A DNA stretch of 49,300 bases, taken from contig MHVH01000006.1 in the NCBI GenBank assembly GCA_001825155.1, positions 70,939 through 120,238 of the forward strand. Direction: 5' to 3'. Source of the DNA: Candidatus Zambryskibacteria bacterium RIFCSPHIGHO2_01_FULL_46_25 (GTDB lineage: Bacteria; Patescibacteriota; Minisyncoccia; Phycocordibacterales; Zambryskibacteraceae). The translations under genes and the position numbers were made by a program. Positions 47,610 through 49,300 of the stretch are shown here, in pieces. The number at the start of each line of letters is the position of its first letter. Position 1 is the first letter of the stretch. The notes beneath the pieces are model-generated. The model was given only the letters and a program-made list of their open reading frames with translations. It was not told the origin of the DNA and made no database searches.

Positions 47610-47644
47610 AAACCCTTGTTTTAAGCCTTATTATATAGATTTAC

Positions 47645-47681
47645 TTGACATTTTTCCTGTTTGGGTGTATGATATAAAAAG
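47645..47681 (+). promoter_or_regulatory. Promoter of the DGR target gene (shared TTGGGTGTATGATA module)
   Basis: TTGACA-17-TATGAT. Confidence 0.8.
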
Positions 47682-47755
47682 GACAGTAAGCCAAAGGCAT
47701 TCCGCCTCGTGGCTAGAGCGACACGTTCTTAGGAACAGGTCGCGGGGAGAAGGAC

Positions 47756-48325
47756 ATGTCAATCATGACGAGTCGGCAAGCTTCGGAACTCGACTTCGCA
47801 TTCGAGCGCAACGGGTGGACGTCGGAAGACGTCAAGAGGGTGAGCGGCGGCGATTTGCTCGCCACGCTTCTCCTCGTCGTGCGCGGAGCGGCCGAGGTGG
47901 TGGTGAAGATTATCACTCGCACGGTCAAGGTCGACCGCAGCCGCACCGCGGCCGAGGTGATCGACGCCACGGGCCGGGTCAAGTGGTATATCGACCAGGA
48001 AGCCCTGGCCGAGATGCCGCTCGACGGCAAGTCGGAGGACACAGTCGAGTTCTTTGAGCTCAACTATGACCCTTCCGTCGACGAGCTCGACCGCGAGTAC
48101 GAAGCTCGCGGTCTGCGTCCCGACCCCGCGGCCGTGGCGCAAGCCATGGCCGACGACCCCGCCTTAGCCGACGAGCGCCCCGTTGGTGTTCAGTGGCGAG
48201 ACGCTCGAGATCGAGCTTGCTACGCGATCTTCCACCGCGACGTTAGCGAGCACTACGTCGTCTTCGTCAACCGGTTCGACCACAGGTGGCTTCGGCACTA
48301 CCGCTTCGCGGGCGTCCACAAGTAG
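47756..48325 (+). CDS. DGR target protein with C-terminal variable region
   Basis: SD AAGGA; 189 aa; the last 35 codons align with the TR. Confidence 0.9.
   Translation: MSIMTSRQASELDFAFERNGWTSEDVKRVSGGDLLATLLLVVRGAAEVVVKIITRTVKVDRSRTAAEVIDATGRVKWYIDQEALAEMPLDGKSEDTVEFFELNYDPSVDELDREYEARGLRPDPAAVAQAMADDPALADERPVGVQWRDARDRACYAIFHRDVSEHYVVFVNRFDHRWLRHYRFAGVHK
48218..48322 (+). repeat. DGR variable repeat (VR)
   Basis: Versus TR: 14 of 17 substitutions fall at TR adenines, plus one 3-nt insertion. Confidence 0.95.
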
Positions 48326-48331
48326 CTCCTG

Positions 48332-48367
48332 GGTCTTGGGATTCTAGTTCTTTTGGATCCCTAGACC
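48332..48367 (+). other. Imperfect hairpin just 3' of VR (candidate DGR homing hairpin)
   Basis: GGTCTTGGGATTC ... GGATCCCTAGACC, starting 6 nt after the target stop codon. Confidence 0.5.
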
Positions 48368-48377
48368 TTGGTTCTCG

Positions 48378-48416
48378 GGCCCGGCATTCAGAAATGGATG
48401 TCGGGCCTTTTGTTTT
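48378..48416 (+). terminator. Intrinsic terminator of the DGR target gene
   Basis: GGCCCGGCATTCA-GAAA-TGGATGTCGGGCC (two G-U pairs) followed by TTTTGTTTT. Confidence 0.8.
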
Positions 48417-48644
48417 GCTAAACTAATATCGGTAGTAGGCAAGTGCGGGCGATTAAGGTTCCCCGCCGCTGAATCCAGTATCCATGCATCGAGAATTTCC
48501 TAGACCAAGGTTTTGGAAAGAGTGGTGCATGCAAACTCAAAAAATGAAGATACTTGGTGCGACAAGCTAACGCATTATAATGCGGAATACGATACAGCTC
48601 TGCGAGCATTCAAAGAGCAGTGGCACAGAAGGCTTGTCGCACGA

Positions 48645-48746
48645 TGCTACGCGATCTTCAACCGCAACGACAGCAAGCGCAACGTCAACGTCAACCGGAA
48701 CGACAACAGGTGGAATCGGAACTACCGCTTCGCGGGCGTCCGCAAA
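48645..48746 (+). repeat. DGR template repeat (TR)
   Basis: 8 AAC and 1 AAT codons in the VR reading frame; invariant GC-rich 3' block TACCGCTTCGCGGGCGTCC. Confidence 0.95.
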
Positions 48747-48751
48747 CCTCT

Positions 48752-49160
48752 TCATTTCTCCTCTGCTTTGGCGGGGGAGTTTTGTTTAATCATCTGATTG
48801 AGCCAGCCACCAATCATTTTCCCAACTTCATCTAGCGGTTCTGATATCAAAATATACTTCTTATTATCTATAGACTTTATCTCCCATAGAACCATGAGCA
48901 GAATCTTCAAAACCTCAAGTTTGCGAGAAGAATTTTCTAGGTGTATAGACTGCTTTTCTCTGGGCGAAAAGGTTGCCACAGCAATGCTTTCTATAATTTC
49001 TAAAAATAACTTATCTATCTTATTGCCGAGCGTGTATCGATTTACTTGGGGTAAAATTACATGAATCTTATGCCAAGCGAGATAAACATTTTTGATTCTG
49101 CTCAAAACTCCCGGCAAAACTCGTTGGGGGGGGGCTTTTAAGAGGTTCAGTCATAGACAT
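48752..49160 (-). CDS. avd: Avd-like four-helix-bundle accessory protein; ATG-initiated N-terminus out of frame at the C9 tract
   Basis: YLAW...LPQVNRYTLGNKID...LEVLKILL...LDEVGKMIGGW. Intact frame is 48752..49117 (TTG start); with C8, ATG 49160 gives MSMTEPLKSPPQRVLPGVLSRIKNVYLAW. Confidence 0.85.
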
Positions 49161-49300
49161 GATGATATCATCTCTGTCGAAAATCTTCTCGAGGCCTGGA
49201 AAGAATTCATAAGAGGTAAGAGGGGCAAGAGAGATGTCCAAGAGTTCCAGCTTCATCTCATGGATAATATTTTTTCGTTACATGAAGATTTAAAGAATAA
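49061..49300 (+). CDS. DGR reverse transcriptase, N-terminal part (3'-partial; frameshifted at the G9 tract)
   Basis: DDIISVENLLEAWKEFIRGKRGKRDVQEFQLHLMDNIFSLHEDLKN resembles the N-terminus of DGR/group II-type RTs. Catalytic motifs lie beyond the window. Confidence 0.8.

What the first reader, a model, noticed from the sequence alone, without database searches (positions are those of the whole stretch)
47645..49300. Diversity-generating retroelement diversifying a small unrecognised protein, with inverted avd
Seen: VR 48218-48322 versus TR 48645-48746 shows 14 of 17 substitutions at TR adenines (AAC to CAC/GAC/TAC/TTC, AAT to CTT, AAG to GAG) and an invariant GC-rich 3' block. The order is target(+), TR(+), avd(-), RT(+). 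Known: this is the signature of RT/Avd adenine-mutagenic retrohoming, and DGRs are common in CPR; in the Bordetella phage prototype avd, TR and RT are co-oriented. The 189-aa target has no evident signal peptide or TM segment and no family I recognise, so it may be a compact cytoplasmic CLec-like ligand binder (inference).
Basis: partly seen in the sequence, partly recalled or inferred. Interest (0 to 1): 0.85.

Follow-up and report, generated by a model that had tools for sequence, protein, structure and literature searches.

The report
Typical CPR diversity-generating retroelement cassette
This is a real diversity-generating retroelement that rewrites the tip of a small lectin-fold protein, but its inverted accessory gene and unrecognised, signal-less target are the normal state for such elements in tiny 'candidate phyla radiation' bacteria.

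Summary
VR 48218-48322 and TR 48645-48746 differ by 17 substitutions, 14 of them at TR adenines (Fisher p about 1e-6), plus a 3-nt insertion in the VR. The minus-strand ORF is an Avd. The ORF that runs off the window is a reverse transcriptase with YADD; it continues on contig C3, and an independent metagenome contig spans the join.

The "inverted avd" is not unusual. TR-(avd)-RT is architecture B3 of Wu et al., which covers 90% of CPR DGRs. All 72 RT relatives with an avd hit that I examined have it inverted. Targets without a signal peptide or known domain are also reported as typical for CPR.

The target belongs to a large unnamed family (1484 representatives). Its residues 52-189 model confidently as a C-type-lectin-like fold, though the structural Z scores are modest.

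New here:
- A paralogous second cassette lies on contig C1. Its VR matches the window's TR (19 of 19 differences at adenines) better than its own TR.
- A covariation-supported structured RNA of about 210 nt lies directly 5' of the TR, and an intrinsic-terminator-like hairpin lies directly 3'.
- A hypermutable repeat (G9 here) sits between avd and RT and is conserved across the lineage.

Verdict: a new member of a known kind.

The parts
47645..47673 (+). sigma-70-like promoter of the target gene (TTGACA, 17 nt, TATGAT)
   Evidence: 11 of 12 consensus matches. It is a consensus match only. The scan found 2 promoter-like sites against 1.5 expected in shuffles.
47756..48325 (+). target gene A, 189 aa: N-terminal helical module (about residues 1-50) plus C-type-lectin-like domain (about 52-189)
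   Evidence: No Pfam or NCBIfam match.
48218..48322 (+). variable repeat (VR_A), the last 35 codons of the target
   Evidence: 14 of 17 substitutions at TR adenines, plus a 3-nt insertion. An independent contig, L116, has an identical VR.
48328..48371 (.). imperfect inverted repeat just after the VR and stop codon
   Evidence: DNA fold -9.3 kcal/mol, z -2.13 (7 of 200 shuffles fold as well). Support is weak to moderate.
48377..48418 (+). terminator-like hairpin plus T tract after the target gene
   Evidence: 14 pairs (8 G-C), then TTTGTTTTGC.
48430..48644 (+). conserved structured RNA domain directly 5' of the TR (several helices and an invariant single-stranded AAAAAATGAAGATACTTGGT segment)
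   Evidence: On 38 sequences there are 53 pairs, 48 with compensatory changes. 96.4% of cells are paired, against 76.8% in shuffles and 38-48% when partners are slid. No Rfam family reaches its threshold.
48645..48749 (+). template repeat (TR_A); adenines mostly in AAC codons
   Evidence: Position 48742 is polymorphic (G in the window, A in L116).
48758..48789 (+). intrinsic-terminator-like hairpin plus TTTTGTTT, 9 nt after the TR; it overlaps the last avd codons on the other strand
   Evidence: z -3.34. A hairpin plus T run is visible at the same place in the relatives aligned, judged by eye because RNAalifold gave no pairs on that alignment.
48752..49117 (-). avd (121 aa from TTG 49117). ATG codons at 49154 and 49160 lie beyond the repeat tract in another frame.
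49126..49134 (.). G9 homopolymer (C9 on the avd strand) between the avd start and the conserved RT N-terminus
49092..49300 (+). 5' part of the reverse transcriptase gene. It runs off the window and continues on contig C3:1-899 (about 345 aa if it starts at TTG 49092).

Best explanation
The locus is a diversity-generating retroelement of the CPR (Patescibacteria) lineage, in its standard layout target-VR, TR, inverted avd, RT. It is inserted between secY and adk.

Most likely mechanism:
1. A discrete non-coding RNA of about 350 nt is made. It consists of a structured 5' domain (48430-48644), the TR (48645-48749) and a terminator hairpin (48758-48789).
2. The RT, helped by Avd, copies the TR part into cDNA and misincorporates at template adenines.
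3. The cDNA replaces the homologous VR at the 3' end of the target gene. This recodes about 18 positions of a small C-type-lectin-like binding domain.
4. The same TR also appears to have written the VR of a paralogous target on contig C1, acting in trans.

Shown here: the TR/VR pair and its adenine bias; the identity of the RT and Avd; the conserved RNA structure; the lineage-wide layout; and family-wide hypervariability at the adenine-coded positions.

Inferred: the extent of the transcript; cDNA synthesis and homing themselves; the lectin-like binding role; trans action; and whether the element is active at present.
For: TR/VR pair: 14 of 30 adenines changed against 3 of 72 other bases, p 9.5e-7.

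RT:
- It continues on C3 with YADD and an LGNLTSQ motif. That the latter marks DGR RTs is recalled, not tested.
- Pfam RVT_1 E 1.1e-24.
- The nearest NCBIfam model is the group II intron RT, 150 bits, below its cut-off of 300.
- The C6 to C3 join rests on an exact 70-nt overlap. It is spanned by an independent 5567-nt metagenome stretch with 7 mismatches and no gaps.

Avd: PF22296 E 2.9e-13; NF033474 E 2.2e-16, 60 bits, below its cut-off of 80.

Lineage:
- 8 of 29 loci with target relatives carry the same cassette, with 112 of 117 TR/VR mismatches at adenines.
- Among 80 RT-relative loci, avd is inverted in 72 of the 72 with an avd hit.
- A TR/VR pair was found in 64 of 68 loci with enough flank, 63 of them in the same order and strand. 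Mismatches are 1114 at adenines against 64 elsewhere.

Family-wide variation: entropy is 2.23 bits at 18 adenine-coded positions against 0.34 bits at 16 others.

Fold: the domain model has pLDDT 96.1. The 50 best rows of 48,161 chains are, by their titles and my reading, C-type lectin, Link, intimin/invasin or FGE-type domains. They include the DGR variable proteins TvpA (Z 4.6, 115 aligned) and Mtd (Z 4.6, 104 aligned).

RNA.

Trans templating: the VR on C1 differs from the window's TR at 19 positions, all adenines. It differs from its own TR at 17 adenines plus 6 other bases. It also carries the window TR's derived C at column 41, where its own TR and four of the five outgroup TRs that I read have G.
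Against: Signs that VR_A is not being rewritten now:
- It has a 3-nt insertion that none of the 24 same-class family members aligned shares.
- It has 3 non-adenine changes. Two of them turn Args that are conserved in the family into His.
- It is identical in an independent assembly that differs at 7 other positions.

Fold matches are all Z 5.5 or less, below the tool's own caution line of 8, and Foldseek found nothing at E <= 0.001.

No consensus promoter was found for the TR RNA, RT or avd.

RT cannot be co-transcribed with the TR unless the terminator is read through.

Trans templating assumes that contigs C1 and C6 of this metagenome-assembled genome belong to one cell. I could not test that.

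The avd and RT starts are uncertain (see the repeat tract).
Confidence: 0.88

Rival explanations
1. The cassette is a recently silenced or decaying DGR. The parts are recognisable, but VR_A is frozen and no longer diversified.
For: - VR_A carries a unique extra codon and 3 non-adenine substitutions.
- VR_A is identical in contig L116 although 7 other sites differ, 5 of them in the target body.
- In the assembled state the ATG codons upstream of the C tract are out of frame with avd.
- The paralog's RT has no canonical in-frame start.
Against: - The RT, Avd, TR and 5' RNA are all intact. RT codons in A and B differ mostly at synonymous sites, by my reading of the sequences, which points to purifying selection.
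- Wu et al. report that CPR DGRs often show several non-adenine differences, and that 3-nt indels next to AAC occur in working-looking DGRs.
- One of the 3 non-adenine mismatches disappears when the TR allele of L116 is used.
- VR_B is a clean adenine-only derivative of this TR.
Confidence: 0.3
2. VR_B on C1 was written in cis by an older version of its own TR, which then drifted. No cross-talk between the two cassettes occurred.
For: Five or six of the 8 TR_A/TR_B differences are derived in TR_B, judged against the outgroup TRs of L119 and L120. An older TR_B would therefore have resembled TR_A.
Against: At column 41, TR_B and the outgroups L119, L120, L122, L123 and L124 have G. VR_B has C, like the derived state of TR_A. 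Cis origin also needs 5-6 changes in TR_B and none at 72 non-adenine positions of VR_B.
Confidence: 0.3
3. The TR/VR similarity is an ordinary duplicated gene fragment diverging by normal mutation, next to an unrelated RT (group II intron, retron or defence RT).
For: The best NCBIfam hit of the RT is the group II intron RT model, below its cut-off. An ORF of 94 aa can be read across the TR.
Against: - The adenine bias has p about 1e-6 here, and the lineage total is 1114 against 64.
- An Avd gene is present.
- No intron RNA domains or retron families were found by Rfam.
- The 94-aa ORF lies over a covarying RNA structure.
Confidence: 0.02

Closest known systems
CPR-set DGRs of architecture B3, TR-(avd)-RT (Wu et al. 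2018, PMC5758913); DGR clade 2 of Roux et al. 2021 (PMC8144416)
   Same: Same gene order and inverted avd. Usually a single, small, C-terminally diversified target without TM, signal peptide or known domains. Frequent non-adenine differences. Host is Patescibacteria from groundwater. Wu et al. also note CPR DGRs next to ribosomal protein genes.
   Different: Nothing in the layout differs. In the passages I read, I saw no description of the 5' structured RNA, the terminator after the TR, the repeat tract between avd and RT, or templating across two cassettes.
Bordetella phage BPP-1 DGR (mtd, avd, TR, brt)
   Same: Adenine-specific TR-to-VR information flow. Avd plus RT. A GC-rich 3' block shared by TR and VR. 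An inverted repeat after the VR. A lectin-fold target diversified at its C-terminus.
   Different: In BPP-1, avd is co-oriented and lies upstream of the TR, and its 3' end is part of the DGR RNA. A spacer of about 140 nt between TR and brt primes cDNA synthesis (Handa et al., bioRxiv 10.1101/2023.10.23.563531, passages). Here the 5' flank is a dedicated structured domain of about 210 nt. The 3' flank is only a hairpin with a U tract, antisense to the end of avd. The element is chromosomal, not in a phage.
DGR variable proteins TvpA (2y3c) and Mtd (1yu0), C-type-lectin / FGE-type fold
   Same: The model of residues 52-189 aligns to both: Z 4.6, rmsd 3.4 and 3.3 A, 115 and 104 residues. The variable residues are at the C-terminal end.
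   Different: About 140 residues, much smaller than either. Sequence identity is 8%. There is no sequence-level family match. The Z scores are too low to prove homology.
DGRs with remote or multiple targets (Treponema denticola DGR; 45 of 372 DGRs in Wu et al.)
   Same: One TR serves a VR far from its own cassette.
   Different: Here the remote VR sits inside another complete cassette with its own TR, avd and RT. Wu et al. excluded targets that were part of another DGR from their remote-target screen.
Simple-sequence contingency loci of bacteria (poly-G tracts in Neisseria genes; the repeat between divergent fimbrial genes hifA/hifB of Haemophilus). Recalled, not looked up here.
   Same: A long homopolymer, or a 2- or 4-nt repeat, at the 5' junction of two divergent genes. 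No mismatch repair genes were found in the genome. One other G10 tract in this genome lies just after the start codon of a signal-peptide protein.
   Different: Length variation within a population was not shown here. The repeat controls, if anything, a mutagenesis machine rather than a surface antigen.

Membership tests
Diversity-generating retroelement | Template and variable repeats whose differences lie almost only at template adenines | tested here: met
   14 of 17 substitutions at adenines, p 9.5e-7. The remote VR_B shows 19 of 19.
Diversity-generating retroelement | Adjacent reverse transcriptase with catalytic YxDD | tested here: met
   RVT_1 E 1.1e-24 and YADD. The join of C6 and C3 is confirmed by L116.
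Diversity-generating retroelement | RT belongs to the DGR clade of reverse transcriptases | tested here: inconclusive
   No DGR-RT model was in the libraries used; the nearest is the group II intron RT, below its cut-off. Of the 80 closest RT relatives, 64 of the 68 with enough flank sit beside an adenine-biased TR/VR pair, which supports clade membership indirectly. No RT tree was built.
Diversity-generating retroelement | VR inside a protein-coding target, usually at its C-terminus, with a shared GC-rich 3' block (IMH-like) and often an inverted repeat downstream | tested here: met
   The VR is the last 35 codons. There is an invariant GC-rich block of about 20 nt. The inverted repeat is at 48328-48371, z -2.13.
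Diversity-generating retroelement | Ongoing diversification of the VR within a population | tested here: inconclusive
   Only assembled contigs were available. VR_A is identical in L116. A contig in runs X1 and X2 joins the target body to a different VR (table 5).
Avd (bAvd, PF22296; NF033474) | Sequence match to the Avd family profile | tested here: met
   PF22296: 50.7 bits, above its cut-off of 40. NF033474: 60 bits, below its equivalog cut-off of 80.
DGR architecture B3 of Wu et al. (TR-(avd)-RT) | TR and RT on one strand with avd between them on the other strand | tested here: met
   Definition taken from PMC5758913.
C-type-lectin fold DGR variable proteins | Structural similarity of the VR-bearing domain to C-type-lectin or FGE-type domains | tested here: inconclusive
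   All 50 listed rows are of this fold class by my reading of their titles, but the best Z is 5.5 (rmsd 3.3 A, 98 aligned). Foldseek found nothing at E <= 0.001.
Rfam RT-7 RNA (RF03028) | Score at or above the gathering threshold | tested here: not met
   21.5 bits against a threshold of 116.8, over only 67 nt. No hit in 9 related loci.
Phase-variable (contingency) locus | Long simple-sequence repeat at a conserved place in or beside the 5' end of a gene | tested here: met
   66 of 72 related cassettes have one: G7-12 in 58, GA repeats in 7, and a C run in 1. The background is 1 G/C run of 8 or more in 441,434 nt.
Phase-variable (contingency) locus | Repeat length varies within or between closely related populations and switches expression | tested here: inconclusive
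   Two independent assemblies of each cassette have the same length: G9 (window and L116) and G10 (C1 and L118). Contigs of X2 and X4 across the tract carry one gap whose position was not listed. Expression was not testable.

The most novel reading that the evidence does not exclude
The mutagenesis machine may itself be under a slipped-strand switch. A hypermutable repeat is wedged between the divergent avd and RT starts in nearly every member of this CPR DGR lineage. It is G9 here and G10 in the paralog; elsewhere it is G7-12, (GA)n or (CTGG)n, never a unit of three. Its length would set the reading frame, or the amount, of Avd and in some members of RT. In a genome without mismatch repair, DGR hypermutation would then be stochastically on in a minority of cells. 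In addition, the template is a self-contained RNA of about 350 nt with its own structured 5' domain and terminator. That could let one cassette's RNA serve the VR of another.
Probability: 0.35. Interest if true: 0.8.

Novelty: new member of a known kind. Interest (0 to 1): 0.5.

Why it matters
As a DGR, the locus adds one more member to a well-documented CPR lineage, so the features the reader headlined are not news.

Three lineage-wide features came out of checking it. I did not find them described in the papers I could search or read.
- A covarying 5' RNA domain abuts the TR, and a terminator directly follows it. Together they would define the DGR RNA of the most DGR-rich bacterial group, and they differ from the Bordetella model.
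- A conserved hypermutable repeat lies at the avd/RT junction. It offers a testable idea for how cells limit the cost of targeted hypermutation.
- There is a case where one cassette's TR best explains the VR of a second complete cassette.

The target family (at least 1484 sequence clusters, about 200 aa, no annotation) is a compact lectin-like scaffold that may be useful for binder engineering.

Tried and rejected
- Foldseek against the PDB gave no match at E <= 0.001 for either model. Only VIA-align gave a coherent list.
- Rfam gave nothing above threshold in the window or in 9 related loci, apart from one tRNA in L022.
- RNAalifold on the 3' flank of the TR (37 sequences, one with coordinates I had set wrongly) predicted 0 pairs because the hairpin region aligned badly. 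The terminator claim rests on the scan, the single-sequence fold and inspection by eye.
- A 17-nt exact match to the GC-rich TR block at C5:76826 lies on the opposite strand of what reads as the C-terminal end of a GyrB-like gene. I set it aside as not a VR. No further VR or TR copy exists in the 581,808-nt assembly.
- Read laying: in X1, X2 and X4 the listed near-identical contigs stop at 48106-48145 and resume at 48319; in X5 they stop at 48242 and resume at 48301. They also stop at 49133, inside the G tract. Uncovered parts prove nothing and I do not use them as evidence.
- The idea that avd always starts at an ATG beyond the tract is not supported. The nearest open ATG is in frame in only 16 of 65 cases (offsets 0, 1, 2 = 16, 20, 29), about what chance gives.
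- The idea that depletion of adenines explains the GC-rich target is rejected. The target body has A 18.8% and T 16.7%.
- I considered group II intron, retron and defence RTs and rejected them (no RNA families).
- Paul et al. 2017 (Nat Microbiol) is not held. What I say of it is recalled.
- Supplementary files of Wu et al. and Roux et al. were not opened (closed). They may list this VR class or these contigs.
Full report
**Observation.** The window ends in a cassette that reads: target gene (47756-48325, +), TR (+), a 121-aa ORF on the minus strand (48752-49117), and an ORF that runs off the end (from 49092, +). Aligning the end of the target with the downstream copy gives VR 48218-48322 and TR 48645-48746. 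They differ at 17 substituted positions, 14 of them at TR adenines. That is 14 of 30 adenines against 3 of 72 other bases (Fisher p 9.5e-7). They also differ by a 3-nt insertion in the VR, within the AACGTC AACGTC AAC stretch. The first 15 nt and a GC-rich 3' block of about 20 nt are identical. It did not state the indel.

**Components.**
- The minus-strand ORF is an Avd: Pfam bAvd PF22296, E 2.9e-13, above its cut-off; NCBIfam DivGenRetAVD, E 2.2e-16, below its cut-off.
- The window is the end of contig C6 of a 581,808-nt, 7-contig assembly (96.4% complete). Its last 70 nt equal the first 70 nt of C3.
- On C3 the ORF continues for 298 aa with YADD. It matches RVT_1 at E 1.1e-24 and is followed by adenylate kinase.
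- An independent metagenome contig (L116) runs across the join. It has 7 mismatches and no gap in 5567 nt.

**The layout is the norm for this group.** Wu et al. (PMC5758913; passages read) define architecture B3 as TR-(avd)-RT with avd on the reverse strand. They state that it accounts for 90% of their CPR set. They also report for CPR DGRs a single target, frequent non-adenine differences, and 3-nt indels next to AAC.

My own sampling agrees:
- A profile of the target family hits 79 of 401 genomes of the same order. Of the 29 loci returned for other genomes, 8 contain avd, or avd and RT, in the same order. Their TR/VR mismatches at adenines are 20/20, 19/19, 16/16, 18/18, 2/2, 11/12, 14/17 and 12/13.
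- A scan of species-representative genomes with an RT alignment found at least 588 relatives, and the best 80 were kept.
- In the 72 of those with an avd hit, avd is inverted in all 72.
- In the 68 with enough flank, 64 have a TR/VR pair, 63 in the same order and strand. Mismatches are 1114 at adenines against 64 elsewhere.

**Target.**
- The 189-aa protein has no Pfam or NCBIfam match. A word-indexed search found 41 relatives. A full profile search found 1484 cluster representatives at E <= 0.001 and 142 at E <= 1e-30, nearly all about 200 aa.
- Among 25 members with the same VR class, Shannon entropy is 2.23 bits at the 18 positions that the TR encodes with an adenine in codon position 1 or 2. 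It is 0.34 bits at the other 16 positions (Mann-Whitney p 1.3e-6) and 1.20 bits over the rest of the protein.
- AlphaFold models: the whole protein has pLDDT 85.4, with a weak N-terminal helical part. Residues 52-189, with a 91-row alignment, give pLDDT 96.1 and pTM 0.90.
- Foldseek finds nothing at E <= 0.001. VIA-align against 48,161 chains lists 50 rows that, by my reading of their titles, are all C-type lectin, Link, intimin/invasin or FGE-type domains. The best is Z 5.5 (rmsd 3.3 A, 98 aligned). TvpA scores Z 4.6 (115 aligned) and Mtd Z 4.6 (104 aligned). The tool warns that Z under 8 may be a common arrangement, so I call the fold lectin-like, not proven.
- A hydrophobic helix at residues 35-53 (Kyte-Doolittle 1.98) carries three charges and is not conserved in paralog B. 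I see no signal peptide.
- Roux et al. (PMC8144416; passage) already say that CPR targets typically lack TM or other known domains.
- The first ~55 residues of target A recur at 80-90% identity on other ~195-aa proteins with quite different, also variable-looking C-termini.

**Second cassette and cross-templating.** Contig C1 holds a paralogous cassette in the same order. Identity to the window's cassette is 64% for the target, 64% for Avd and 78% for the RT. Comparing both VRs with both TRs:

| VR | against TR_A (window) | against TR_B (C1) |
|---|---|---|
| VR_B | 19 differences, all at adenines | 17 at adenines plus 6 others |
| VR_A | 14 at adenines plus 3 others, plus the insertion | 14 at adenines plus 11 others, plus the insertion |

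Outgroup TRs of the same VR class (L119, L120; more distant ones L122-L124) polarise the 8 TR_A/TR_B differences. TR_B is derived at columns 35, 37, 65, 74 and 98. TR_A is derived at columns 27 and 41. At column 41, VR_B has the derived C of TR_A. The simplest reading is that TR_A, or an identical template, last wrote VR_B. The rival is cis writing followed by drift of TR_B; I put it at about 0.3. This assumes that the binning of C1 with C6 is right.

**Is it active now?**
- Against: VR_A has an extra codon that none of the 24 aligned same-class relatives shares. Two conserved Args have been changed to His by G-to-A transitions. VR_A is identical in L116 although 7 other sites differ.
- For: one of the three non-adenine mismatches (VR 48318) is matched by the TR allele of L116 (48742 A), so the TR is polymorphic. 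The RT, Avd, TR and RNA are intact. In runs X1 and X2 a contig joins the target body at 48199, through 18 other letters, to sequence that fits the TR better than VR_A. That is, the same gene body carries another VR there (table 5). Its 18 letters translate to the six residues that protein P0001 has at that place.

Only contigs, not reads, could be laid, so current activity stays open.

**The template RNA.** The ~210 nt before the TR are more conserved between the two cassettes than their surroundings: 82-92% against 60-74%.
- On 10 and then 38 related sequences, RNAalifold predicts the same helices. In the larger set there are 53 pairs, 48 with compensatory double changes.
- With that structure, 96.4% of cells pair, against 76.8% in column shuffles (0 of 500 reach it) and 38-48% when partners are slid by 1-3 columns. 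The covariation score is 0.694, against 0.289 in shuffles and 0.13-0.19 when slid.
- A sequence profile finds the element in 58 of the 80 RT loci and in 8 of the 17 metagenome loci. Where the TR is mapped, the element ends within -14 to +8 nt of the TR start.
- Nine nucleotides after the TR comes a hairpin with TTTTGTTT (48758-48789) that scores as terminator-like (z -3.34). It is visible at the same place in relatives (by eye).

I therefore infer a discrete RNA made of the 5' domain, the TR and the terminator. In the Bordetella model the upstream avd segment pairs with a long downstream spacer that also primes cDNA synthesis (Handa et al., bioRxiv, passages). Here the bases just 5' of the TR pair with a segment about 75 nt further upstream. 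No Rfam family covers the element. Weinberg et al.'s RT-10 motif is the Bordetella spacer.

**The repeat tract.** Between the avd start and the conserved RT N-terminus lies G9 (49126-49134). The paralog has G10.
- The 8 order-level relatives examined (which include paralog B) have G9-G11, or in L010 ten CTGG units.
- Of the 72 RT loci with enough upstream sequence, 58 have G7-12 at the same place. The lengths 7, 8, 9, 10, 11 and 12 occur 1, 10, 15, 18, 11 and 3 times. Seven have GA repeats of 12-32 nt, and one has a long C run.
- Elsewhere in those loci there is 1 G/C run of 8 or more in 441,434 nt.
- The tract starts 0-21 nt from the extrapolated avd start in 65 of 66 loci.
- RT has a canonical start after the tract in 46 of 66 loci. 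In 20, including the window's subclade, the open RT frame runs through the tract.
- For avd, 20 of 66 have an in-frame canonical start beyond the tract, 34 have one after it, and 19 have neither.
- In the window, the ATGs beyond the tract would join the avd frame at 8 or 11 repeats, not at 9. In the paralog likewise not at 10 (in-silico length change).
- Against a simple "ATG is the start" model, the frame of the nearest open ATG is spread 16/20/29.
- The own genome has only four G/C runs of 9 or more. Two are at the DGRs. One is a G10 just after the ATG of a signal-peptide protein whose body continues in another frame. One lies in a stretch where I saw no long ORF.
- No MutS or MutL domain was found (genome 96.4% complete).

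I read this as a probable slipped-strand or transcriptional-slippage control of Avd and RT. Length variation was not shown: two assemblies of each cassette agree.

**Setting.** The upstream gene is SecY and the downstream gene is Adk. In the same-genus genome G341 and in G067, secY and adk are 35 and 23 nt apart. Here they are about 2.5 kb apart. The cassette is therefore an insertion into the ribosomal-protein/secY/adk cluster. In L041 an RT relative is also followed by adk. The target body is 64.5% G+C, against 39.5% for the RT and about 47.5% for the genome. Across 59 cassettes the target body exceeds the RT in G+C in 58, by 13.7 points on average. This is unexplained.

**Verdict.** The DGR call is right. 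The locus is a new member of a known kind. The cross-cassette templating, the RNA unit and the repeat tract are the parts worth following. I found no paper describing them in three full-text searches. Those searches cover only the held library, and supplements were closed.

Noticed in passing
window 49126-49134; also G000:C1:25277-25286 and loci L007-L115: A G/C homopolymer (or a GA or CTGG repeat) is conserved between the divergent avd and RT starts in 66 of 72 related cassettes. The rest of those loci hold 1 comparable run in 441 kb. It may be a slipped-strand switch.
   Followed up: partly
window 48430-48644 and 48758-48789: A covarying structured RNA domain lies directly 5' of the TR, and a terminator-like hairpin lies directly 3'. 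Neither is in Rfam. Together they suggest a discrete DGR RNA of about 350 nt.
   Followed up: yes
G000:C1:24306-26759 (minus strand): A second complete DGR cassette with a paralogous target. Its VR fits the window's TR (19 of 19 at adenines) better than its own TR. Its RT has no canonical in-frame start at the assembled tract length.
   Followed up: yes
G000:C5:40146 (G10): A G10 tract lies 14 nt after the ATG of a protein with a signal-peptide-like N-terminus and a repetitive body that I read as beta-helix-like. The body continues in another frame in the assembly, which looks like a classical phase-variable surface gene.
   Followed up: partly
whole genome G000: No MutS (PF00488) or MutL (PF01119) domain was found in a 96.4% complete genome, which would make long homopolymers unstable.
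   Followed up: partly
window 47756-47920 (target residues 1-55): The N-terminal ~55-residue helical module recurs at 80-90% identity on other ~195-aa protein families (P0025-P0039, P0040/41). These have different C-terminal domains that also look variable, which suggests domain shuffling among DGR targets.
   Followed up: partly
window 47960-48078 versus L116: Five of the 7 differences between the window and the near-identical contig L116 cluster in 119 nt of the target body outside the VR. They are not adenine-specific. This may reflect recombination or selection.
   Followed up: no
proteins P0001 and P0005; runs X1, X2 (joint 48199 to 48645): P0001 has the gene body of target A but a C-terminal ~50 residues identical to those of the paralog-type protein P0005 (locus L119). 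The shared part includes residues upstream of the TR homology, which suggests gene conversion between paralogous targets.
   Followed up: partly
window 47610-49300 plus C3:1-908: The cassette is a ~2.5-kb insertion between secY and adk. These genes are 23-35 nt apart in G341 (same genus) and G067 (same family). L041 also has adk right after its RT.
   Followed up: yes
window 47756-48217 versus 48752-49300; loci L036-L115: The target gene body is far more G+C-rich than avd and RT (64.5% vs 38-40% here). In 58 of 59 related cassettes the target exceeds the RT, by 13.7 points on average. Unexplained.
   Followed up: partly
L012:3-518 (minus strand): The RT stretch of this relative contains one in-frame stop codon.
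   Followed up: no
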